From Candidatus Jordarchaeales archaeon (GTDB lineage Archaea > Asgardarchaeota > Jordiarchaeia > Jordiarchaeales > Freyrarchaeaceae): a DNA stretch of 22,048 nucleotides. The translations under genes and the position numbers were made by a program. Below, one piece after another: positions 1 to 8,369 of this stretch. The notes below the pieces were generated by a model. The model did not search any database. It was not told the origin of the DNA and saw nothing but the letters and a program-made list of their open reading frames with translations. How positions within the stretch are numbered: the first letter of the stretch is position 1; each line of letters starts with the position of its first letter. The stretch is from contig JAWAHN010000005.1 of NCBI GenBank assembly GCA_038889235.1, positions 1 to 22,048 on the forward strand. Direction: 5' to 3'.

Positions 1-28
1 CGGGGTTATAGGGGTTTATAAGGGGAAA
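1..28 (+). promoter_or_regulatory. Proximal end of putative CRISPR leader (truncated by window edge)
   Basis: Low-complexity GGGGTTATA-GGGGTTTATA-AGGGGAAA directly before repeat 1, with TATA-like TTTATAA at 15-21. Repeat orientation (3' ATTGAAAG) and the degenerate repeat at the far end place the leader on this side. Confidence 0.45.
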
Positions 29-1361
29 GAAACAAAAACAGTCCCCACAAATGGGGATTGAAAGGTGCACTGGCAACATTTTGGCTTATGGTGTACGCCA
101 TGTCGTGAAACAAAAACAGTCCCCACAAATGGGGATTGAAAGTTTTGCGTACCACAGCATTTTTAATTCCATGTGCTTCTCCGAAACAAAAACAGTCCCC
201 ACAAATGGGGATTGAAAGAGAAGCTTATTCGTGACGCATTCACCCCTGTACTTGTTGAGAAACAAAAACAGTCCCCACAAATGGGGATTGAAAGCATTTT
301 TTTGTGCAATCGTCCAATTTATACAGCAACGTGAAACAAAAACAGTCCCCACAAATGGGGATTGAAAGAAGTACCCCCGCTGCCCGCATCTAGGACACTC
401 GACCGGCGCGAAACAAAAACAGTCCCCACAAATGGGGATTGAAAGTGCCGAAAGCAAACCCAGTTTTTGTGTGGATCTCTGCAAGAAACAAAAACAGTCC
501 CCACAAATGGGGATTGAAAGGTAGGAAAAATTGAGGCGCCAACACTAAGCGATGCCATGAGGGCATGCGAAACAAAAACAGTCCCCACAAATGGGGATTG
601 AAAGAGTAAAATATTTTGATATTATCAATGTTTTTTTGTTTGTTTGAAACAAAAACAGTCCCCACAAATGGGGATTGAAAGTCAGCTACTACGCCGGCCT
701 TGGGAAGCCGGGGTGTGTGGAAACAAAAACAGTCCCCACAAATGGGGATTGAAAGTTCGGTTATCCTCGCGACAACCCCCCTCAGCCCCCTCCCGAAACA
801 AAAACAGTCCCCACAAATGGGGATTGAAAGTATATCAGGGGAGACTGGGTTTTCAGGATAAGGGAGTCCAAGAAACAAAAACAGTCCCCACAAATGGGGA
901 TTGAAAGTACATGAAACTGGTGGTGGTTCTGTTGGAGGTCGTTAATCCTGGAAACAAAAACAGTCCCCACAAATGGGGATTGAAAGTGAATCGTGGCCGG
1001 CTTACGCAAGCCGGCTTCAATAGTATGAAACAAAAACAGTCCCCACAAATGGGGATTGAAAGGGGTGTTTTTTGCATTCTCCTCTCTCCCGTTTCTTTCT
1101 TGAAACAAAAACAGTCCCCACAAATGGGGATTGAAAGTCGATGCTACTCTATAGCTAAGTAGGTCGTCGTCGATGTGAAACAAAAACAGTCCCCACAAAT
1201 GGGGATTGAAAGAGGTTCGCTGCCTTCGCTGCCTTAACTGCTTCCTCTGGAAACAAAAACAGTCCCCACAAATGGGGATTGAAAGAAGATGAGGGAGGAG
1301 TTGAGGGAGGCCGCTGTAAAGGAAGAGACGAGAGCAGTCTTTACAGGTGGGGGGTTGAAGG
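29..1361 (+). CRISPR. CRISPR array: 17 identical 36-nt repeats GAAACAAAAACAGTCCCCACAAATGGGGATTGAAAG, 1 degenerate terminal repeat, 17 spacers of 37-48 nt
   Basis: Perfect repeats start at 29,107,183,259,333,410,485,569,646,720,795,872,951,1027,1102,1177,1250. Degenerate copy at 1325-1361 (25/36 identical plus 1 inserted G). Hairpin TCCCCA-CAAA-TGGGGA and 8-nt 3' handle ATTGAAAG typical of Cas6-processed class 1 arrays. Confidence 0.99.
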
Positions 1362-1499
1362 AGAGTCTGTGAGATGTGTATTGGTGAGCTGAGATAGGAG
1401 GTGGTTCTATGAGTTGGGGGGTTTTGAGGTATGAAATTGGTATGTGGTAGGTTTGGGGTGTGAGATGGTTTTGGGTGGTGGGGTTTGGTGTAATTTTGG

Positions 1500-2438
1500 G
1501 TGATGTGTTTTGGTGTTGAGTTTTTTGGGGAAGGTTTTTATGTGTGGTGTTTGGGGGGTTTTGTGGTGGTTGTTTTGGGTTGGAGGTTTGTTTTTGTTTT
1601 TCCTTTTGTGTTGTTTTTTGTTTTCTTTCTTTATAGGGCGACGGTGGCTTCTTTTTATGGGAGTTTGAGGGCGCCGTTTTTTGTGTTTTTGGTTTATTTG
1701 GTTTTGTTTGTTGTTGTTAGGAGGTTTGGGGGTGTTTTTGCGCGTGTTGTGTTTGTGGCTGGTCTTGTTCATGTTTGTTTCTGTTTTTCGTTGGTGTTGA
1801 GGGCGAGTTTCGCTTCTGTTTTTGTTTCGCTTGTTCCTTTGCTTGTTTTGTTGTTTTTCGTGTTGGTGTGTTTTGTTGTTCGTTTGTGGCCTTGTGTTGG
1901 TGCTTCGGCTGTTCTTGATGGTTTTGCGGTTTTTGCTGGTTTGAAGGTTAGGTTGGTTGTTTTCTTTAAGCTTGGGGGTGTGGGGGATGTGGGGGTGCTG
2001 CTTGGGGAGGCTTGGTCTAGGCGTTTGTCTTTTACTGTTGAGAGGTTGGGGGGTGAGGTTTTTGTTTCTGTTTGTTTTGAGGGGTTTTCGTATGGGAGGG
2101 TTGAGGGGGCTGCCGTGGAGGGGGCTGGGTGGTTTGAGGAGGTGTTGAGGAGGGGTGGTTTTAGGCCTAGGAGGGTGGAGGGTTGGGTTGAGGTTGAGAG
2201 GCTTCTTTATGCTCCTTTGTCTCCTGGGTGGGAGGCTTTGTATTTTGAGCCGTGTGTTGGTGGGTGGTCTACTGTTCGCCTTTTGCCGCCTTTGGGGAGG
2301 AGGGGGAGGGCGGTGGCTGTTAGGCGCGCTTTCAAGCCGGGTGGGCTTGACCCTCACCCTCAGTTTGCGCTTAAAGCTTTTATTAGTGGTTTTCAAGATA
2401 GTTTTGAGGGGTGGCGTGTTGGAGCTGCGCGAGATTAA
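1500..2438 (+). CDS. Hypothetical integral membrane protein (about 4 N-terminal TM segments plus soluble alpha/beta C-terminal domain); start uncertain (1500, 1503 or 1542)
   Basis: 312-codon open frame whose stop overlaps the radA-like start. F/V/L/G-rich N-half, polar C-half. Composition is inflated by extreme G+T skew, so TM prediction is partly confounded. Confidence 0.6.
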   Translation: MMCFGVEFFGEGFYVWCLGGFVVVVLGWRFVFVFPFVLFFVFFLYRATVASFYGSLRAPFFVFLVYLVLFVVVRRFGGVFARVVFVAGLVHVCFCFSLVLRASFASVFVSLVPLLVLLFFVLVCFVVRLWPCVGASAVLDGFAVFAGLKVRLVVFFKLGGVGDVGVLLGEAWSRRLSFTVERLGGEVFVSVCFEGFSYGRVEGAAVEGAGWFEEVLRRGGFRPRRVEGWVEVERLLYAPLSPGWEALYFEPCVGGWSTVRLLPPLGRRGRAVAVRRAFKPGGLDPHPQFALKAFISGFQDSFEGWRVGAARD

Positions 2439-3402
2439 GGGGGTTGGACCTGAAACCCTTAGGAAGCTCATGGATGCGGGCTACACTACTGTTGAGAGTG
2501 TCGCTTTTGCCAGCCCGCAGGATCTTGCCTCTGATGCTGGGATAGGTGAGGCTACGGCTAGGAGGATAGTGGAGCAGGCGAGGAGGCTTGTCGCGAGCGG
2601 GGAGGGTAAGGGTGGGAGGCTCGTGCAGATACTTCCGGGGAGGGAGGCTAGGCGTATTCTGAGCAGCATAGAGAGGGTTACCACCGGTCTCAGGGGGCTC
2701 GACTCTATTCTCGGGGGCGGTGTCGAGACTTGTGCCATAACAGAGTTCTATGGTCCGGCTAGGGCCGGCAAAACCCAGCTCTGCCACCAGCTCTGCGTCA
2801 CGGTCCAGCTTCCGAGGGAGAGGGGTGGGCTCGAGGGTAGGGCATTGTACATAGACACTGAGAGGACGGTGAGGTATGACGCTATAGCGAGGATCGCTGA
2901 GAGGTTTGGGCTGGACCCGGACAGCGCTTGCGACAACGTTTTCTACACGTATGCCGTCAACAGTGAGGCGCTCCGGGAAACGATAAGGGGGCTCGACGGG
3001 GTGGTTAAGCAGGGCGCGGTGAAGCTGGTAGTGGTGGACTGCCTCACGGGGCACTTTAGGGCTGAGTACACTGGGAGGGAGACGCTGGCTTTGAGGCAGC
3101 AGCTCATAAACAGGATGATACACGACCTTCTCAGGCTTGCCTTAAGCTACGATCTGGCAGTTGTGGTCACAAACCAGGTTCACGCCCAGCCCGACGTTTG
3201 GGGCAAGAGCGAGGCGCCCACGGGGGGCCACGTCGTAGCCCACGGAGTAACGTACAGGGTTGGTCTCTCTGTGAAGAAGGGGAACGTTAGGATAGCGAGC
3301 TTGGTCGACGCGCCCGCTCTTCCGCCTTCATCCGCCTTCTTCGCTATAACCGACAGGGGGCTGGTGGATGTGAGCGAGGAGGAGGCTAAGAGGGGGGACT
3401 AG
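2416..3402 (+). CDS. radA: RadA/Rad51-family recombinase, divergent paralog with N-terminal HhH domain
   Basis: HhH ELREIKGVGPET, TTGLRGLDSILGGGVET, Walker A GPARAGKTQ, YIDTE, Walker B VVVD, FRAEYTGRE, TNQV, GGHVVAH, VDAP. Start placed at GTG 2416 after GAGGGG; the track extension to 2155 is low-complexity. Confidence 0.93.
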   Translation: MLELREIKGVGPETLRKLMDAGYTTVESVAFASPQDLASDAGIGEATARRIVEQARRLVASGEGKGGRLVQILPGREARRILSSIERVTTGLRGLDSILGGGVETCAITEFYGPARAGKTQLCHQLCVTVQLPRERGGLEGRALYIDTERTVRYDAIARIAERFGLDPDSACDNVFYTYAVNSEALRETIRGLDGVVKQGAVKLVVVDCLTGHFRAEYTGRETLALRQQLINRMIHDLLRLALSYDLAVVVTNQVHAQPDVWGKSEAPTGGHVVAHGVTYRVGLSVKKGNVRIASLVDAPALPPSSAFFAITDRGLVDVSEEEAKRGD

Positions 3403-3404
3403 CC

Positions 3405-3722
3405 GTGTTGAGGCCCCTTCCCAGGCGTGTTAGAAAGTTCGAGTCGGAGAGGAGGAGGCTGAAGAAGAACGTGAGGGTGGTTGCTTTGAGGGGGGAGAGG
3501 TGGATGGCCTACGCGTCTCTTCCCTGGATGCGCGAGCTCTGCGGCCACCTTTACGGGGAGAACTGCTGCGTCAAGCTGGAGGAGAAGGGGGAGGGAGTGG
3601 TCCAAGCCACGGTTTACGCCTCGACAGCCGAGCTGGCTGATGCCGTGGCCTCCGAGCTTGAAAGGGGGTTCGAGATTTTCAGGACGGTGGAAGGTTGGGA
3701 GAAGAGGAAGGGGCAGGCGTGA
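3405..3722 (+). CDS. Small hypothetical protein (105 aa)
   Basis: Fills the gap between radA-like stop (3402) and a GTGA stop/start overlap with the next gene. Host-like codon usage. Confidence 0.7.
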   Translation: MLRPLPRRVRKFESERRRLKKNVRVVALRGERWMAYASLPWMRELCGHLYGENCCVKLEEKGEGVVQATVYASTAELADAVASELERGFEIFRTVEGWEKRKGQA

Positions 3723-4315
3723 AGTTGAGGGGGAGGAGGCCGGACTACCTTCTCGTGTCGCTCGGAGCGCTGGCGGCGCTTACACTAGCGGTTGCCGCCG
3801 CACCCCAACTGGCCCCGCTCGCCGCCGCAGTGCTCCCCGCGCTGGCCGCGTACTTCGCCTGGAGGCTGCGCCCCCGGGCGCTCGGCGGTGTTGTCAGGCG
3901 CGAGTCGGCCTTCTTAGGGGATGTCGTAGCCTCGTGGGTTGGGGGGAGGTGGAGGGCTTACAGCATGTTGCAGGTTGCATCGGTCCCGGACGTCATACGT
4001 GGAGACGTGAAGCGCTTTTTCAGGATGATGTACCTTGAGGGGGTTCCATTCTTCTACCACGTGAGGCAGGGGCCTGCGTCCTCTTGGTTTGTGAAGGGCG
4101 GGCGTGAGGCTGCTGTGAGGGCTTCGGGGGTGTGGAGCACGTCCATAGTGATAGGTGTCTGGGGTGAGGGGGCGAGGTTGGACGACGCTGTGAGGGAGGC
4201 GAGGGCTAGGGCTGAGAAGGCTAAAGCATTCTTCGAGGCGTCCTTCCCCCACCACAGGGTCGAGCTGCTTAAGGGTGGAAGCCTAGTTGACGCCGTGAAG
4301 GAGTGTTTTCCGTGA
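3719..4315 (+). CDS. Hypothetical membrane-anchored protein (2 N-terminal TM segments plus alpha/beta domain)
   Basis: GTG 3719 overlaps the previous TGA. Hydrophobic hairpin LLVSLGALAALTLAVAAA / LAAAVLPALAAYFAW followed by a soluble domain. Same reading frame as the next ORF. Confidence 0.75.
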   Translation: MKLRGRRPDYLLVSLGALAALTLAVAAAPQLAPLAAAVLPALAAYFAWRLRPRALGGVVRRESAFLGDVVASWVGGRWRAYSMLQVASVPDVIRGDVKRFFRMMYLEGVPFFYHVRQGPASSWFVKGGREAAVRASGVWSTSIVIGVWGEGARLDDAVREARARAEKAKAFFEASFPHHRVELLKGGSLVDAVKECFP

Positions 4316-4324
4316 GGTGGAAGG

Positions 4325-5767
4325 TTGAAGAGGTTCCGCTTGACGGGCGACGAGCTGAGCAGGTATGTGTCATTTGAGGGCACTGTCCGCGTAGGGGTCA
4401 AGAGTAGGCCGCCGGCAGAGTTCACTCTTCCACCTCTCCCATTTGACTTCCCCGTGGGCCTGGTAGTTGAAGCCGAGAACGTGGCGCCGCACAGTGTTTT
4501 CGGGTTCACGGTGGAAAACATGGCTGAAGGAGTGCTCGTAGCTGGGGGGAGCGCGGAGGAAAGAGTCAACACGCTCCTGAGGATCCTGGGCGGCTCCTCG
4601 AAGCTGGGCTGGAATATCGCCGCCGCCACCTCAAGAAACCTGGCCCGCGTCAGGTCTGTTGCACCACAAGCCAGGGTTTATGACGGATTCCCCCTCAACC
4701 CCTTAGACCCGGAAGAGGCGGGGGGCGCGGAGTACGCTTCAGCCCTCTCACTCACGCTTCAGTCGGCCCTCGGGTTGACGGGCGGCCAGAGGCTCCTACT
4801 GGAGGACGCAATCGCAATGTGCATGGATGAGGGAGCTCTAACACTTGAGGAGCTTAAGGAGAAGGTTAGGGAGGCGGCTGTAAGCGAGCTGAGGAGCCAG
4901 GCGGAGAGAAGGGAGGCGGAGCTCCTACACAGGGAGCTGGGGTTGACCATGTCCCTTAAGGGGGCTGAAAAGCTGTCACCGGCAAACCCTTCGACGCTCC
5001 GCTGGATGGTTGAGGCGCCGACAGTCGCACTACTGTGGGAGCCTAGGCTGGCGGCGGTCGCCCAGGCTTCGCTCCTAGCTAAAGCGATGTGCTTGGAGGT
5101 TAGGGGGTTCAGCGTGCTCGTCGAACTAGACTGTTTTGCCGAGCCGGAGCCGCTCGCCGGGGTCTTTAGGAGGCTTAGGGAGAAGGAGGTCGGAGTGGTT
5201 GCTTTGTCGCCGAGCGTCTCGCACGCCGGCTCCGCCGCCAGCGTCCTCGGAAACAGGGTCATACACAGGCTTGAGGACGGCGGCGAGGCGGGGCTTGTAG
5301 GCAGGCTTATGGGGTTGAGGGAGGAGGGGGAGAGCGTGCAGAGCGGTAGGAGACACAGGCTGTACCAGGTGGAGGTGTTAAGGTTCCTCGAGTGGGGGGA
5401 GGCCGTGGTTCAGAGGAGCGACAACCCTTCCCCGGTTTTGGTAGTCTTCGAGATGGTTGAGGGGGGTGAGGCGAGGGCGGAGCCTGTTTCGGGGGCTGGA
5501 GGGGGGAGAACGCCGCTCGAAGTTGACTTCGGGAGCGACGCGGCCGACGCCTTGAAGGTAATACAGTTGGTCCACGACTTTCCGCAGATAACGCTGAGCC
5601 AGGTGGTGGGCGGCCTACCAGAGATTGGGGAGAAGGCGAGGGTTCTCGCGCTCAGGCTGGCGGATAGGGGCTACCTCGCGTCGTTCAGGGATGGGAGGGG
5701 GAGGAGGGTTTTCGTGGTGACGAGGAGGGGTGAGGATGCCTTGAGGAGGGTTAGGGGTGGGGGCTGA
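4325..5767 (+). CDS. HerA/VirB4-like (DUF87-type) ATPase-fold protein with degenerate Walker motifs and probable C-terminal wHTH
   Basis: Collinear family landmarks: GVLVAGGSAEER at the Walker A position, PLNPLDP, ALGLTGGQRLLL, RRLREKEVGVVALSPS (cf. REGRKYGVGVILATQ), NRVIHRL, LEWGEAVV. SD-like GAGGTG before TTG. Confidence 0.6.
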   Translation: MKRFRLTGDELSRYVSFEGTVRVGVKSRPPAEFTLPPLPFDFPVGLVVEAENVAPHSVFGFTVENMAEGVLVAGGSAEERVNTLLRILGGSSKLGWNIAAATSRNLARVRSVAPQARVYDGFPLNPLDPEEAGGAEYASALSLTLQSALGLTGGQRLLLEDAIAMCMDEGALTLEELKEKVREAAVSELRSQAERREAELLHRELGLTMSLKGAEKLSPANPSTLRWMVEAPTVALLWEPRLAAVAQASLLAKAMCLEVRGFSVLVELDCFAEPEPLAGVFRRLREKEVGVVALSPSVSHAGSAASVLGNRVIHRLEDGGEAGLVGRLMGLREEGESVQSGRRHRLYQVEVLRFLEWGEAVVQRSDNPSPVLVVFEMVEGGEARAEPVSGAGGGRTPLEVDFGSDAADALKVIQLVHDFPQITLSQVVGGLPEIGEKARVLALRLADRGYLASFRDGRGRRVFVVTRRGEDALRRVRGGG

Positions 5768-6572
5768 CCTTTCACCTTTCGCCTCGTGGCGCCGGGCGGG
5801 GGGCCTTGGGAGGCTTGCGGTCGACGGCATGAACGTGCTCGTCGGCCAGCTCAGGTGGTCGAGGTGGGGGTGGAGGGTGGCGGCGGTGAACACGCTTTAC
5901 AGGCTTTTGAGGCTGGTGGAGCTCGGGGCTCACCCCGTATTCGTCTACGATGGGAAGCCTCACAAGGCGAAGGTGAGGGGGGAGGGTGGGGTAGCGCTCA
6001 GGTCGGCTTTGGGGCTCGTCGTTGAGGGGGCCCGGCTCATGGGGGTCCCATGCGTCCAGGCGCCCGGGGAGGGGGAGGCGCAGGCGGCTTACATGGCTGC
6101 TATTGGAGTGGCTGACGCGGTTTTCACGTCGGACTATGATGCCTTCCTCTTTGGCTCGCCTGTCGTTGTGAGGGAGCGTGGGGGGCTGGAGGAGTGTACT
6201 CTTAGAAGCGTGTTGGAAGCTTCCGGGTTGACGCTCAGGCAACTTGTGGACGCAGCGGTCCTCTCGGGAACGGACTTCAACACGGGTGTGAAGGGGGTCG
6301 GGATAAGGAGGGCGGTGGCGCTCGTGAAGGAGCATGGGTGCCTTGAGGGGGCACTGCGAGCCCTCGGAGTAAGTGAGTGTGACGAGTTCATCGAGGCGAG
6401 GAGGCTCTTTCTAGATCCTGACGTGGCGGATGTCAAAGTGGTGTTCGTAGCCCCCCAGATTGCTGGGCTCAGAAAGCTTCTCTCCGAGCATCTCTCAGAG
6501 TCTCACGCTGAAAACTTCGTCAAAAGACTGATGAATGCTAGGACGAGGCAGTTGAGGCTGGTGGAAGATTGA
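5757..6572 (+). CDS. FEN1/XPG-family 5' structure-specific nuclease paralog with shortened arch region
   Basis: MGADL start, LAVDG, PVFVYDGKP, QAPGEGEAQAAYM, SDYDAFLFG, GTDFNTGVKGVG (H2TH/H3TH). All acidic metal-ligand positions present. 271 aa vs about 340 aa for typical archaeal FEN1. Confidence 0.92.
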   Translation: MGADLSPFASWRRAGGLGRLAVDGMNVLVGQLRWSRWGWRVAAVNTLYRLLRLVELGAHPVFVYDGKPHKAKVRGEGGVALRSALGLVVEGARLMGVPCVQAPGEGEAQAAYMAAIGVADAVFTSDYDAFLFGSPVVVRERGGLEECTLRSVLEASGLTLRQLVDAAVLSGTDFNTGVKGVGIRRAVALVKEHGCLEGALRALGVSECDEFIEARRLFLDPDVADVKVVFVAPQIAGLRKLLSEHLSESHAENFVKRLMNARTRQLRLVED

Positions 6573-7306
6573 TTGACGCGTTAGTGTTTGTGGCGGCTTT
6601 AGCTGTAGTGGTGGCGGCGGCCGCGGCTTACGTTCTTGGAAGACACGTGTTGGCGGCGTTAGTGTGGCTGAAGCTTGCAGGCTGGGCGGCTAGGGTTGTA
6701 GTACGCCACTGGAGGCTGGGGGCAACGGTGGCTGCCGCTGCATTTGCTTTCGTGCTTCTTCAGGCGCCACTTCAAAGCGCGGCCTTCGCGGTCTTACCAT
6801 CTCTCCTAGCTGGCGCGGCTGCGTGGTTGCTGCTGCACGGGAGGGGGAGGGGGGCGGCAGCTTTGGGACTACTGGCGCTCACGTCAGTTGCTGCGCCGCG
6901 TGCGGCTCAGGCTCTGGCGCCGCTGGCCGCCGTGACAACGCTAGCGGCGGTAGCCCTAGCGGTGTTGGGGCTTGCTGCTTCAACTTTAAAAGGCAGAACG
7001 CCGCGGGAGGCCTTTCAAGCCACATATACTACTCCGGGGCTGACGGGAACTGTGGTGGGGGCGGTCAAAGAGAAAGGAGGGGTTAGGGTGGTTATGGTGG
7101 CCGTTGCAGACGGCGAGACGACGAGGGTGACTATCTCTGGAACGCTGAGAGACGAGTTCGAGGAGAAAGCGGGGGGAGTGGTGGCGAGCACCGTAAACAC
7201 TACGCGCGAGGTTAAAAAAGCCTGGAAACGCTACCTTGAGAGGGGAGACCCGCAGCTTGCGGTCACCTTGCTCTTAAAAACACTTCGGGCGGGTAACGGT
7301 CACTAG
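6569..7306 (+). CDS. Hypothetical multi-pass membrane protein with small C-terminal soluble domain
   Basis: TTGA start/stop overlap with the nuclease. About 4-5 Ala/Leu/Val hydrophobic segments in the first 140 aa. Confidence 0.75.
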   Translation: MIDALVFVAALAVVVAAAAAYVLGRHVLAALVWLKLAGWAARVVVRHWRLGATVAAAAFAFVLLQAPLQSAAFAVLPSLLAGAAAWLLLHGRGRGAAALGLLALTSVAAPRAAQALAPLAAVTTLAAVALAVLGLAASTLKGRTPREAFQATYTTPGLTGTVVGAVKEKGGVRVVMVAVADGETTRVTISGTLRDEFEEKAGGVVASTVNTTREVKKAWKRYLERGDPQLAVTLLLKTLRAGNGH

Positions 7307-7333
7307 GGGCAGGTTGGACGAGGAGAACTGGAG

Positions 7334-7720
7334 GTGGGTTGCTTGGCTGTTAGGGTTTGTGTTTGCAGCCTTTGTGGCTCGTACTTCTCGTCTAAGGCTG
7401 GGAGGCCTAGGTGTCCTAGGTGTGGGGGGTGGGGGAGGGTGGTTGAGGAGGTTCTTGGAGCTGCGGCGGCGGCTCGGAGGGTGAGGGAGTTGCAGGCTTG
7501 TTCCAGCTTCCAGGAGTCTGGGGTTGTGGGGCCCGGTCGCTGTAAGCTGAGGGGGATGGGTAAGCTTAAATCCTATGTTGAGAGGCTTGGAGGAGTGGTG
7601 ACGGTGGAGGAGCTAGAGAGGGAGTTCGACGAGGAGTGGCTTAAGGTAGCTCTGGAGGAGCTTGAGGCGAGGGGTTTGGTTGTGAGGGTGGGTGGGAAGC
7701 TAGTTTTCAGGGAGGTGTAG
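7334..7720 (+). CDS. Zn-ribbon plus winged-helix protein (start may be TTG 7343)
   Basis: CSLCG...CPRCG pair. C-terminal VTVEELERE...ALEELEARGLVVRVGG pattern typical of wHTH. GGAGGTGG SD before 7343. Confidence 0.7.
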   Translation: MGCLAVRVCVCSLCGSYFSSKAGRPRCPRCGGWGRVVEEVLGAAAAARRVRELQACSSFQESGVVGPGRCKLRGMGKLKSYVERLGGVVTVEELEREFDEEWLKVALEELEARGLVVRVGGKLVFREV

Positions 7721-7724
7721 GGGG

Positions 7725-8369
7725 TTGTCGTCCCTTGGCGGGCGGACTAGGGCTGCTAGGAGTGGGGGGCTTGTGATCCACGTTTGGGGGGAGGCTGGGA
7801 GCGGGAAGACCGCTCTCGCGGCTCGGGTAGCTTCAACTCTCTCCGAGGAGGGCTTCCACGTCATATATGTCTCAGATAGGCTTCCCAGGAGTGTTTGGGG
7901 GGATGTTGAGCGGGTGACCTTTGTAGTGGCTTCCGATGAGCGCGTTATTCCGGAGCTCCCAGACACGCTGGAGAGGCTTGTGAATCCGAGAACGAGGCTG
8001 ATAGTCTTGGACACTGCTGCCTCGCTTTACGGGCATTTGCCGAGAACCGCGAAACTGAGGCTTCTCCCGCTGGTCCTCCTGAAGCTTAAAAGGCTCGCAG
8101 CTGAGAAGGGGGTCTCAACCTTACTGCTAAACGACGCAGTGCAGGCGAGCGGTGGGGTGAAGCCGTGGGAGCAGGAAGAACTAGAGAAGTACGCGGACTT
8201 AACAGTTCACCTGGCGAAGTGGGACGGCGAGCGGATAGCTAAAGGCGCCCCGCTTACAGACTACCTCCCATGGGAGGCGCTAGAAACACTGGCCGCGAAA
8301 AGCGGTGAAACAGCGAGAGGAAGCCAAACCGGAAACACGGCACTAAACGCTAGGCGAAGCCGCGGGTAA
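7725..8369 (+). CDS. RecA-superfamily P-loop ATPase, RadB/aRadC-like (no HhH domain)
   Basis: Walker A WGEAGSGKT, HVIYVS, Walker B LIVLDT, LKRLAAEKGVSTLLLND (cf. LARKYDIAVVITNQ). GGAGGTG SD at 7711-7717. Confidence 0.78.
   Translation: MSSLGGRTRAARSGGLVIHVWGEAGSGKTALAARVASTLSEEGFHVIYVSDRLPRSVWGDVERVTFVVASDERVIPELPDTLERLVNPRTRLIVLDTAASLYGHLPRTAKLRLLPLVLLKLKRLAAEKGVSTLLLNDAVQASGGVKPWEQEELEKYADLTVHLAKWDGERIAKGAPLTDYLPWEALETLAAKSGETARGSQTGNTALNARRSRG

What the first reader, a model, noticed from the sequence alone, without database searches (positions are those of the whole stretch)
2416..3402. Full-length RadA paralog with altered polymerisation motif and Walker A
It aligns end to end with archaeal RadA as I recall it (S. 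solfataricus). The FxxA filament-assembly motif (FKTA, 19 residues before STG) is ILPG (2629-2640), Walker A GEFGSGKT is GPARAGKT (2752-2775), and DTEGTFR is DTERTVR. The HhH domain, catalytic Lys/Glu and L1 Arg residues are kept. This suggests an active ATPase with altered filament behaviour, more like a mediator or specialised recombinase than the short aRadC/RadB paralogs.
Basis: partly seen in the sequence, partly recalled or inferred. Interest (0 to 1): 0.6.

Follow-up and report, generated by a model that had tools for sequence, protein, structure and literature searches.

The report
Second, remodelled RadA recombinase in Jordarchaeia
This hot-spring Asgard archaeon carries, beside its normal RadA recombinase, a second full-length RadA whose subunit-contact surfaces have been rebuilt; it sits in a conserved operon with membrane proteins and divergent copies of other DNA-repair enzymes, so it looks like a dedicated recombinase for a specialised, still undescribed DNA-handling machine.

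Summary
Window 2416-3402 (+) encodes a 328-aa protein that aligns end to end with solved RadA structures.

It is a second copy. The genome has a canonical RadA on another contig. The paralog belongs to a long-branch clade found in 9 of the 11 Jordarchaeia genomes held, and in none of 190 other Asgard genomes searched. It is under strong purifying selection (dN/dS about 0.05).

The catalytic and L1 residues are kept. Clade-fixed changes cluster at the protomer interface.

The gene lies in a conserved operon with three membrane proteins, a HerA/VirB4-fold protein lacking the Walker A lysine, a FEN1 paralog, a Zn-ribbon protein and a minimal RadB-like ATPase. Relatives add a Hel308-like helicase. 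A complex model docks ILPG onto the RadB-like protein (0.77; best control 0.00).

Best reading: an active, specialised recombinase with a private assembly interface, serving a membrane-linked DNA-processing module. First readers of this scan noted the same paralog in other genomes. I found no paper describing it.

The parts
2416..3402 (+). RadA paralog 'R' (328 aa from GTG 2416; alternative TTG start at 2404 gives 332 aa, = P0002)
   Evidence: NF003301 scores 348 bits (cut-off 259). TIGR02236 scores 334.6 bits (cut-off 361.15, not reached).
2419..2586 (+). N-terminal helix-hairpin-helix DNA-binding domain
   Evidence: PF14520 at 56.8 bits; re-translated.
2596..2622 (+). Nine-residue insert SGEGKGGRL (clade consensus ..KGGKL) just before the polymerisation motif; absent from all 146 canonical RadAs compared
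2629..2640 (+). Polymerisation motif ILPG (IL[PS]G across the clade) in place of FxxA
   Evidence: In the complex model these residues make the most confident contacts with protein B.
2752..2775 (+). Walker A GPARAGKT. The consensus is intact, but the aromatic third residue is replaced by Ala.
   Evidence: canonical RadAs have Y/F at this position in 145 of 146.
2854..2877 (+). DTERTVRY. The catalytic Glu is kept. The canonical G/N, the invariant F and the P/W are replaced.
2938..2973 (+). Acceptor strand and helix start VFYTYAVNSEAL, equivalent to human RAD51 V189-Q200. Canonical R, H and Q (Q in 146 of 146) are replaced by Y, A and L.
   Evidence: Pocket residues of human RAD51 are taken from PMC4855620.
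3028..3102 (+). Walker B VVVDC (canonical S becomes C) and the L1 region HFRAEYTGRETLALRQQ (conserved)
3172..3243 (+). L2 region NQVHAQPDVWGKSEAPTGGHVVAH: one-residue deletion and KSE in place of canonical DPT; NQV and GGH..H are kept
3307..3327 (+). ATP-cap segment DAPALPP. The canonical Glu (144 of 146) is replaced by Pro, and H/Y by Ala.
   Evidence: In the model this segment faces the P-loop of protein B.
1500..2438 (+). Operon gene C: multi-pass membrane protein; its stop overlaps the start of R. Orthologues sit directly upstream of R in G002 and G004, and there is a 446-aa relative in the Freyarchaeial locus.
3405..3722 (+). Operon gene D: small soluble Cys-containing protein, conserved in family f1
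3695..4315 (+). Operon gene E: N-terminal transmembrane segment plus a soluble domain, conserved across the class
4325..5767 (+). Operon gene F: HerA/VirB4/TrwB-fold protein with a C-terminal winged helix. Its P-loop position reads GGSAEER, so there is no Walker A lysine.
   Evidence: pLDDT 77.7; HerA 4d2i E 2e-8; TrwB; VirB4; DndH.
5757..6572 (+). Operon gene X: divergent short FEN1/XPG paralog. The canonical FEN1 is on contig C1.
   Evidence: TIGR03674 163 bits, cut-off 352.
6569..7306 (+). Operon gene Y: protein with 4-5 transmembrane segments and a soluble C-terminal domain
7334..7720 (+). Operon gene A: Zn-ribbon plus winged-helix protein, always directly upstream of B
7725..8369 (+). Operon gene B: minimal RadB-like RecA-fold protein (GEAGSGKT, LIVLD). 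It has no N-terminal domain, no polymerisation motif and no DTE. It is the predicted binding partner of R.
27..1362 (+). CRISPR array (18 repeats) directly upstream of the operon in this genome only. This is context, not shown to be part of the system.

Best explanation
The gene encodes a functional, full-length RadA-family recombinase. It is a specialised second copy, not the housekeeping enzyme.

It keeps the HhH domain, the ATP-binding and hydrolysis residues and the L1 DNA-binding loop. It therefore most likely still binds DNA and ATP and pairs strands (inferred).

What has been rebuilt, and then held fixed across the class Jordarchaeia, is the protomer-protomer interface:
- a 9-residue insert before the polymerisation motif;
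- the motif itself, IL[PS]G;
- the acceptor strand and pocket (DTE-R-T-V-x-Y; R to Y, HQ to AL);
- the P-loop aromatic residue, now Ala;
- the ATP cap (E to P).

I infer that this gives the paralog a private assembly surface. That surface would limit mixing with the housekeeping RadA. It would also let the paralog dock, through its IL[PS]G motif and ATP cap, onto the co-encoded minimal RadB-like protein B. B can accept such a contact but has no motif of its own to donate, so it would sit at one filament end as a seed or cap.

The pair works within a conserved operon. This holds three membrane proteins, a HerA/VirB4-fold pseudo-ATPase with a winged helix, a FEN1 paralog and a Zn-ribbon protein. 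In relatives it also holds a Hel308-like helicase. The whole looks like a membrane-linked DNA-processing and recombination module. Functionally it is closest to DNA-import systems coupled to homologous recombination, such as Ced/Ted (inferred, least certain step).
For: **Second copy.** A canonical RadA (FISA, GEFRTGKT) lies on contig C1 and a RadB-like gene at C1:731905.

**Distribution and tree.**
- The clade is confined to the class: 9 of 11 genomes, and none above 51% identity in 190 other Asgard genomes.
- Public proteins drop from 63-96% identity straight to 50% or less.
- The clade is monophyletic at 100% support. Its stem is 1.07 (mixture model) or 0.71 (LG+G4) substitutions per site. 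Its internal topology follows the genome families.

**Selection.** dN/dS is 0.045-0.058, and 65% identity is kept between the two families.

**Residues.**
- The catalytic and L1 residues are invariant.
- Of 25 clade-specific positions, 15 fall in the 99-residue model-derived interface (odds ratio 4.0, Fisher p 0.001). With the stricter set it is 10 of 21 (p 0.059).
- FHTG binds about six-fold weaker than FHTA. The Phe pocket is formed by M158, I160, A192, L203 and M210 of human RAD51 (PMC4855620).
- R and B both carry Ala at the P-loop aromatic position.

**Complex model of R with B.** ipSAE was 0.77. The best of 3 controls scored 0.00. The mark was reached by 58 of 80 solved complexes and 2 of 110 mismatched pairs, and these counts hold only roughly because my own alignments were used. 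The runs agree in at least 93% of contacts and the partner's pLDDT is at least 79. The tightest contacts are R 76-77 with B 65-68, the strand that aligns with the canonical FxxA-acceptor strand.

**Operon.**
- It is conserved in G002, G004 and Freyarchaeial genomes.
- R and F are both not found in the same two genomes, G001 and G003.
- F has a HerA/TrwB/VirB4 fold.
- C, E and Y have hydrophobic transmembrane segments.
- Ted DNA-import loci also co-localise with recombination genes (PMC9905601).
Against: - No biochemical data exist. ATPase, filament formation and strand exchange are inferred from residue conservation only.
- The R-B model resembles solved RadA/Rad51 protomer contacts, so its pass may reflect likeness to known filaments rather than this pair's own binding.
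- R-R and R-canonical RadA pairs could not be modelled (one job only), so 'private interface' is untested.
- The interface used for the enrichment test comes from that same model and was defined after seeing the data.
- Ile and Gly at the motif positions also occur in canonical RadAs.
- F lacks the Walker A lysine, and this genome lacks the Hel308-like helicase, so no obvious DNA-translocation motor is encoded in the window.
- No pilin-like or VirB6-like homology was shown for the membrane proteins.
- The module was not found in two genomes of the same genus (73% and 92% complete), so it is dispensable or hard to assemble.
Confidence: 0.55

Rival explanations
1. R is purely a mediator or accessory factor, like Rad55-Rad57 or the RAD51 paralogs. 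It forms a heteromer with B that loads, caps or stabilises filaments of the housekeeping RadA, and it does not itself catalyse strand exchange.
For: The predicted R-B heteromer uses the polymerisation contact. The L2 tip is changed (KSE for DPT, with a one-residue deletion) and the ATP-cap Glu is lost. Known recombinase paralogs in archaea and eukaryotes mostly act as mediators (established knowledge).
Against: Known mediator paralogs have usually lost the HhH domain or the L1/L2 residues. R keeps the HhH domain, all of L1, NQV and GGH..H. The remodelled acceptor pocket argues against efficient docking with the canonical RadA FISA motif (inference).
Confidence: 0.15
2. The whole module, including R, belongs to an integrated or formerly mobile genetic element such as a plasmid, a conjugative element or a virus-like element. 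It supplies that element's own recombination and DNA-transfer functions.
For: The 2-8 kb stretch is the most GC-rich 5-kb stretch of the genome (0.62 against a mean of 0.48, SD 0.037). Presence within the genus is patchy. Gene order is rearranged between G000 and G002/G004. F has a HerA/VirB4/TrwB fold, typical of conjugation machinery.
Against: No integrase, replication initiator or capsid gene was found. No relatives were found in 2.9 million viral contigs. None of the genome's 72 CRISPR spacers targets the module. The paralog tree mirrors the genome families. GC is not elevated in the Freyarchaeial loci. The flanking genes are housekeeping.
Confidence: 0.12
3. The module is an anti-virus or anti-plasmid defence system, and R is its DNA-sensing or DNA-processing ATPase.
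For: It lies directly next to a CRISPR array in this genome. The fold matches for F include DndH, TdpAB and HerA-type defence ATPases. The helicase of relatives scores best against Hachiman HamB models in PADLOC. A nuclease, a helicase and ATPases together are a common defence architecture (established knowledge).
Against: No operon protein from the window matches a PADLOC model convincingly; the best is E 1.6e-4 to a generic ATPase. CRISPR adjacency is not seen in G004 or the Freyarchaeial loci. HamB similarity is generic to Ski2/Hel308 helicases. A full-length RadA with an HhH domain is not a known defence component (my knowledge).
Confidence: 0.12
4. R is an ordinary redundant RadA duplicate, or a decaying one, and has no special role.
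For: Many Asgard genomes carry 2-5 full-length RadA genes (PMC12722695).
Against: dN/dS is about 0.05. There are 25 clade-fixed substitutions at positions nearly invariant elsewhere. The clade is conserved across two families, and the operon context is conserved.
Confidence: 0.03

Closest known systems
Canonical archaeal RadA (e.g. Saccharolobus solfataricus RadA, PDB 2bke; Pyrococcus furiosus RadA, 1pzn)
   Same: Same two-domain architecture (HhH N-terminal domain plus RecA core). About 48-50% identity over the full length. Walker A/B, the catalytic Glu, L1, NQV and GGH..H are all present.
   Different: It is a second copy on a long branch. It has a 9-residue insert before the polymerisation motif and IL[PS]G for FxxA. 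The P-loop aromatic is Ala. It reads DTE-R-T-V-x-Y for DTE-G-T-F-R-P, AL for the invariant HQ, and has an ATP-cap E to P change. The L2 tip is changed. It falls below the TIGR02236 cut-off. It is embedded in a membrane-protein operon instead of standing alone.
Second RadA clade of Heimdall-, Njord-, Gerd- and Lokiarchaeia (Matsuo et al. 2025, PMC12722695)
   Same: It is a full-length RadA duplicate within Asgard archaea, distinct from the other copy in the same genome.
   Different: That paper does not mention Jord- or Freyarchaeia. In my trees none of about 50 RadA copies from other Asgard families groups with this clade. That paper reports no motif remodelling or operon context in the passages I read.
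Short archaeal RadA paralogs: RadB, aRadC and the Sulfolobus Rad55/Ral proteins
   Same: They are lineage-specific RecA-family paralogs thought to modulate recombination. Protein B of this operon is of this kind.
   Different: R keeps the N-terminal HhH domain, the linker and the DNA-binding loops that these short paralogs lack. The RadB models score only 105-108 bits against cut-offs of 172 and 278.
Eukaryotic specialised recombinases and paralog complexes (Dmc1; Rad55-Rad57, RAD51 paralogs)
   Same: The concept is shared: a second recombinase or heteromeric partner that uses the FxxA-type contact, dedicated to one pathway.
   Different: There is no specific sequence affinity. The Rad51 and Dmc1 models score 275 and 259 bits, the same roughly 0.7 fraction of the housekeeping copy's scores as the RadA model gives. 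No eukaryotic sequences could be placed in the tree.
Ced/Ted DNA-import systems of Thermoproteota (PMC9905601)
   Same: They combine membrane proteins with a VirB4/HerA-fold protein. Ted loci also co-localise with recombination genes (Rad50, a HerA-like helicase).
   Different: Here the VirB4/HerA-fold protein lacks the Walker A lysine. No pilin or VirB6 homology was shown. The locus carries its own RadA, RadB, FEN1 and (in relatives) Hel308 paralogs.

Membership tests
RadA/Rad51/Dmc1 full-length recombinases | N-terminal helix-hairpin-helix domain followed by a RecA-type ATPase core | tested here: met
   PF14520 scores 56.8 bits (residues 2-57) and PF08423 scores 248.9 bits (residues 85-318). 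The protein aligns end to end with 2bke and 1pzn.
RadA/Rad51/Dmc1 full-length recombinases | Walker A GxxxxGK[TS], Walker B Asp, catalytic Glu of DTE | tested here: met
   GPARAGKT, VVVD and DTE are all present, and all are invariant in the paralog clade.
RadA/Rad51/Dmc1 full-length recombinases | FxxA polymerisation motif in the linker | tested here: inconclusive
   The motif reads ILPG (IL[PS]G across the clade). Among 146 canonical RadAs, 16 have I and 23 have G at these positions. FHTG binds about six-fold weaker than FHTA (PMC4855620). The model uses this motif to contact protein B.
RadA/Rad51/Dmc1 full-length recombinases | L1 and L2 DNA-binding loops | tested here: met
   The L1 motif HFRAEY-GR-L-RQQ is identical to the consensus. 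L2 keeps NQV...P...GGH..H, but its tip reads KSE instead of DPT and is one residue shorter.
RadA/Rad51/Dmc1 full-length recombinases | DNA-dependent ATPase and strand-exchange activity | not testable with these tools
   This needs purified protein.
Housekeeping archaeal RadA (NCBIfam equivalogs) | Score above the curated equivalog cut-offs | tested here: inconclusive
   NF003301 scores 348.4 against a cut-off of 259 (met). TIGR02236 scores 334.6 against 361.15 (not met). The genome's canonical RadA scores 500 and 490.
Housekeeping archaeal RadA (NCBIfam equivalogs) | Orthology: the vertically inherited RadA of the genome, branching with its relatives' RadA | tested here: not met
   It is a second copy. 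It forms a separate clade with 100% support and a long stem, and is not sister to the Jordarchaeial canonical RadAs in the best trees. An in-class duplication is nevertheless not rejected (AU p 0.187).
RadB / aRadC short paralogs | Core-only protein without the HhH domain; score above the RadB model cut-offs | tested here: not met
   The HhH domain is present. TIGR02237 scores 104.9 (cut-off 172.4) and NF006861 scores 108 (cut-off 278).
Eukaryotic Rad51 / Dmc1 | Score above the Rad51 or Dmc1 equivalog cut-offs; branching with eukaryotic sequences | tested here: not met
   TIGR02239 scores 275.5 (cut-off 478) and TIGR02238 scores 259.1 (cut-off 448). There is no relative gain over the canonical copy. 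A tree with eukaryotes could not be built because no eukaryotic sequences were available by reference.
Ced/Ted-type DNA import system (for the operon) | VirB4/HerA-family ATPase with an active P-loop | tested here: not met
   Protein F has the fold (HerA 4d2i E 2e-8; TrwB; VirB4 4ag5). Its P-loop position reads GGSAEER in all 8 family members.
Ced/Ted-type DNA import system (for the operon) | VirB6/CedA-like multi-pass channel and VirB2/CedA1-like pilin | tested here: inconclusive
   C and Y are multi-pass and E has 1-2 transmembrane segments by hydropathy. There were no family or feature matches. Their structures were not predicted.

The most novel reading that the evidence does not exclude
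Jordarchaeia, a class of Asgard archaea, may carry a complete parallel recombination toolkit: private paralogs of RadA, RadB, FEN1, Hel308 and HerA. This toolkit would be wired to membrane proteins as a dedicated DNA-exchange-and-integration machine. The remodelled RadA would be its pathway-specific recombinase, insulated from the housekeeping enzyme by a co-evolved knob-and-pocket interface. That would be a prokaryotic, independently evolved counterpart of the Rad51/Dmc1 division of labour, in the closest relatives of eukaryotes.
Probability: 0.2. Interest if true: 0.85.

Novelty: new variant of a known kind. Interest (0 to 1): 0.62.

Why it matters
Archaeal RadA paralogs studied so far (RadB, aRadC, the Sulfolobus Ral proteins) are truncated, core-only proteins. 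A full-length paralog under strong constraint, with its changes concentrated on the filament interface, is a natural experiment. It could show how a recombinase is insulated from its housekeeping twin and given its own partner.

The same problem was solved in eukaryotes by Rad51/Dmc1 and the RAD51 paralog complexes. Because the host is an Asgard archaeon, the case bears on whether recombinase specialisation is a purely eukaryotic invention.

The conserved operon also flags an undescribed membrane-linked DNA-processing system. It comes with a concrete, testable protein pair, R and B.

Tried and rejected
- **Viral origin.** A scan of viral contigs with clade-specific peptide patterns found no relative. 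PHROGs gave only generic recombinase hits.
- **Defence system.** PADLOC gave no convincing hit for any window protein.
- **CRISPR association.** No array lies near the orthologous loci in G004 or the Freyarchaeial genomes. No self-targeting spacer was found.
- **Simple circular permutation of the operon.** G000 has A-B after Y while G002 and G004 have Hel-A-B before C. Y is followed directly by A, so this is a rearrangement with loss of the helicase, not a clean permutation.
- **Homology between small neighbours.** Protein D of family f1 and the 87-93-aa Cys protein upstream of the Freyarchaeial gene show no credible homology.
- **Protein-atlas look-up of membrane protein C.** It gave only a sub-threshold hit of 0.77.
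- **Word-based homologue search for F.** It found only 5 clusters, all Jordarchaeia.
- **Antisense ORF 1407-2471 (-).** Its translation is low-complexity (K/N/P/T-rich). The + strand ORF has orthologues, so I treat the minus ORF as spurious.
- **Tree placement.** The clade sits next to Nezhaarchaeales RadAs and P0013 with 96% support only under LG+G4, and the tool gives a long-branch warning. Under the mixture model the position is unresolved, so I do not claim a donor.
- **Not attempted for lack of jobs.** Complex models of R with R and of R with the canonical RadA.
Full report
**1. Observation**

Window 2416-3402 (+) is an open frame of 328 codons.
- It carries Pfam HHH_5 (residues 2-57) and Rad51 (residues 85-318, 248.9 bits).
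- It aligns over residues 4-320 with S. solfataricus RadA 2bke (E 1e-81) and over 4-318 with P. furiosus RadA 1pzn.
- In these alignments FKTA pairs with ILPG (2629-2640), GEFGSGKT with GPARAGKT (2752-2775) and DTEGTFR with DTERTVR. I re-translated every motif coordinate.
- The GTG at 2416 follows a GAGGGGTGG stretch and matches the N-termini of the orthologues. A public gene call starts at TTG 2404 instead (332 aa, P0002).

**2. Where it lies**

The window is a whole 22-kb contig (C5) of a 2.14-Mb, 8-contig genome.
- The closest named public proteins come from Candidatus Jordarchaeales and Freyarchaeota, which are Asgard archaea.
- The contig starts inside a CRISPR array of 18 repeats. The same repeat ends contigs C1, C2 and C3, so the contig belongs to this genome.
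- From 9.1 kb onward the genes are housekeeping: TFB, phosphoserine phosphatase-like, thioredoxin, pyruvate:ferredoxin oxidoreductase.

**3. It is a second copy**

The genome has a canonical RadA at C1:818133-819056, with FISA and GEFRTGKT, and a RadB-like gene at C1:731905.

| Model | Canonical copy | Paralog | Cut-off |
|---|---|---|---|
| NF003301 (RadA) | 500 | 348 | 259 |
| TIGR02236 (RadA) | 490 | 335 | 361 |
| TIGR02239 (Rad51) | 388 | 275.5 | 478 |
| TIGR02238 (Dmc1) | 378 | 259 | 448 |

The paralog passes the first RadA cut-off and misses the second. All four scores shrink by the same factor of about 0.7, so the paralog has no special affinity to Rad51 or Dmc1.

**4. Distribution and phylogeny**

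- Public proteins fall into two blocks: 63-96% identity (Jordarchaeales, Freyarchaeota) and then 50% or less, which are ordinary RadAs.
- Of the 11 genomes of the class that are held, 9 carry the paralog. It was not found in G001 (73% complete) or G003 (same genus, 92% complete).
- None of 190 other Asgard genomes has a hit above 51% identity. Many of them do hold 2-5 full-length RadA genes. This agrees with Matsuo et al. 2025 (PMC12722695), who describe a second RadA clade in other Asgard classes and do not mention Jord- or Freyarchaeia.
- In a 74-row tree (LG+C20) and a 104-row tree (LG+G4) the paralogs form one clade with 100% support on a stem of 1.07 or 0.71 substitutions per site. The internal order follows the genome families. 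No RadA copy from another Asgard family joins them.
- The clade's place on the backbone is unresolved. A union with the Jordarchaeial canonical RadAs is not rejected (AU p 0.187). A grouping with Nezhaarchaeales RadAs appears only under the simpler model and with a long-branch warning.
- Eukaryotic sequences could not be included, because none was available by reference.

**5. Constraint**

- dN/dS within the clade is 0.045-0.058. The Freyarchaeial canonical pairs give 0.052-0.054; for the canonical copies within this genome's own family dS could not be estimated.
- Between the two families the paralog keeps 65% identity, against 77-81% for the canonical copy.
- It is a working gene that evolves somewhat faster than the housekeeping one.

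**6. What changed and what did not**

I compared 11 paralogs with 146 canonical RadAs. Numbering below is that of P0002.

Kept:
- GK-T;
- D151 and E153;
- D212;
- all of L1 (HFRAEY-GR-L-RQQ);
- NQV;
- GGH..H280;
- R296.

Fixed in the clade and rare or absent elsewhere:
- a 9-residue insert (65-73, ..KGGKL) absent from all 146;
- I76 and G79 (each present in a minority of canonical RadAs);
- L86 (canonical R in 136);
- A119 (canonical Y/F in 145);
- R154, V156, Y158 and A/H160 in the DTE strand (canonical F 146 of 146 and R 145 of 146);
- Y183, E188, A189 and L190 (canonical R, D, H 144 and Q 146 of 146);
- C213;
- K268-S269-E270 plus a one-residue deletion in L2;
- A305 and P308 in the ATP cap (canonical E in 144).

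Mapping to known contacts:
- By alignment, 148/150 and 182-200 correspond to the human RAD51 Phe-pocket residues M158, I160, A192, L203 and M210 given in PMC4855620. That paper also reports that FHTG binds about six-fold weaker than FHTA.
- Two links rest on my memory of the literature and not on a paper read here: that the DTE strand (F166/P168) lines the Ala pocket, and that the P-loop aromatic stacks on the neighbour's His.

**7. Operon**

R is translationally coupled to its neighbours. The window order is:
- C: multi-pass membrane protein, 1500-2438;
- R: 2416-3402;
- D: small Cys-containing protein;
- E: protein with transmembrane segments;
- F: 480 aa;
- X: FEN1 paralog, 163 bits against a cut-off of 352;
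- Y: protein with 4-5 transmembrane segments;
- A: Zn-ribbon plus winged helix;
- B: minimal RadB-like ATPase, 7725-8369.

Conservation in relatives:
- G004 (another genus) has Hel308-like helicase-A-B-C-R-D-E-F-X-Y in one tight operon.
- G002 (same genus) has helicase-A-B-C-R-D-E-F.
- So G000 is rearranged and lacks the helicase.
- Freyarchaeial genomes split the set into two divergent arms and add large extra proteins. These include one that hits Peptidase_M28.
- There the FEN1, RadB, Hel308 and RadA genes all score below their equivalog cut-offs, so they are paralogs too.

Protein F:
- It folds with pLDDT 77.7 and matches HerA, TrwB, VirB4 and DndH.
- Its P-loop position reads GGSAEER in all eight family members.
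- R and F are both not found in the same two genomes, G001 and G003.

**8. Partner test**

- ipSAE was 0.77, and the best of 3 controls was 0.00.
- The mark was reached by 58 of 80 solved complexes and 2 of 110 mismatched pairs. These counts hold only roughly because my own alignments were used.
- The runs agree in at least 93% of contacts, and the partner's pLDDT is at least 79.
- R residues 73-86 (the end of the insert, ILPG and L86) and part of the HhH domain lie on B residues 61-89. B 61-68 aligns with the canonical FxxA-acceptor strand.
- R 275-285 and 302-308 (the ATP cap) face the P-loop of B.
- B has no N-terminal domain or linker motif of its own, so it could only accept such a contact. 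B also has Ala at the P-loop aromatic position (GEAGSGKT).
- This geometry copies solved RadA/Rad51 filaments, so the pass may reflect likeness to them.

Enrichment at the interface: I took the model's two faces as the interface (99 of 332 residues). Of 25 clade-specific positions, 15 lie in it (odds ratio 4.0, p 0.001). With the stricter set it is 10 of 21 (p 0.059). The test was defined after seeing the data.

**9. Reading**

- *Shown:* a conserved, constrained, full-length second RadA with interface-centred remodelling, in a conserved operon with membrane proteins and other repair-enzyme paralogs.
- *Inferred:* it is an active recombinase with a private assembly surface, and it docks on B.
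- *Least certain:* the module handles DNA at the membrane, in the manner of Ced/Ted import coupled to recombination (PMC9905601).

Against a mobile element:
- no integrase, replication or capsid genes;
- no viral relatives;
- no targeting spacers;
- a tree congruent with the genome families.

For a mobile element:
- the highest GC in the genome;
- patchy presence within the genus;
- the gene-order rearrangement.

Against a defence role:
- no PADLOC match;
- no CRISPR adjacency in relatives.

**10. Novelty**

I found no paper on this clade or operon. First readers of this scan independently flagged the same paralog in other genomes. I rate it a new variant of a known kind, of moderate to high interest.

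Noticed in passing
window 27-1362; also the ends of contigs C1 and C3 and 3193-3832 of C2: A CRISPR array of 18 repeats (36-nt repeat GAAACAAAAACAGTCCCCACAAATGGGGATTGAAAG) runs off the left contig end. The same repeat sits at or near three other contig ends, so the arrays break the assembly. The last repeat (1323-1362) is only 65% identical to the rest.
   Followed up: partly
window 2001-8000: This is the most GC-rich 5-kb stretch of the whole genome (0.62 against a mean of 0.48). The + strand is strongly G- and T-rich. The next richest stretches also lie beside CRISPR arrays (C2:13-20 kb, C3:444-458 kb). The orthologous Freyarchaeial loci show no such shift.
   Followed up: partly
window 4325-5767: The 480-aa protein F has a HerA/VirB4/TrwB/DndH-type fold and a C-terminal winged helix. 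Its P-loop position reads GGSAEER in all family members, so it is probably a non-hydrolysing scaffold.
   Followed up: yes
window 1500-8369 compared with L063 (G004) and L064 (G002): Gene order differs within one genus. G002 and G004 have helicase-A-B-C-R..., whereas this genome has C-R-...-Y-A-B with a CRISPR array where helicase-A-B would be. No cluster-type Hel308-like gene was found anywhere in the assembly.
   Followed up: partly
G005-G010 (e.g. G005:C1:2323549-2324484 and 1520675-1521610): Freyarchaeial genomes carry three full-length RadA genes: the paralog and two canonical-type copies, 78-82% identical to each other, that arose by duplication within that family.
   Followed up: partly
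window 7334-7720: The Zn-ribbon of protein A weakly matches the N-terminal zinc finger of bacterial RadA/Sms (TIGR00416, E 0.0019). A followed by the RecA-like B loosely recalls the first two domains of Sms.
   Followed up: no
L063:4913-5521; L010:1-943: An Arf/Ras-like small GTPase (with a Roadblock/LC7-like protein in the Freyarchaeial loci) is encoded in or next to the same gene cluster in G004 and in Freyarchaeial genomes.
   Followed up: no
P0013 (JGI metagenome protein, 332 aa): This long-branch RadA shares some of the paralog's traits (GP in the P-loop, Y at the position of Y158, AVNS). It joins the paralog clade weakly (63%) in one tree. It could be a relative of the ancestor or a long-branch artefact.
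   Followed up: partly
window 1407-2471 (-): This 354-codon antisense ORF translates to low-complexity K/N/P/T-rich sequence. It is most likely a by-product of the G+T-rich + strand, not a gene.
   Followed up: partly
window 5757-6572: The operon's FEN1/XPG paralog is short (271 aa) and has only a weak XPG_N match. The canonical FEN1 is at C1:802784-803809.
   Followed up: partly
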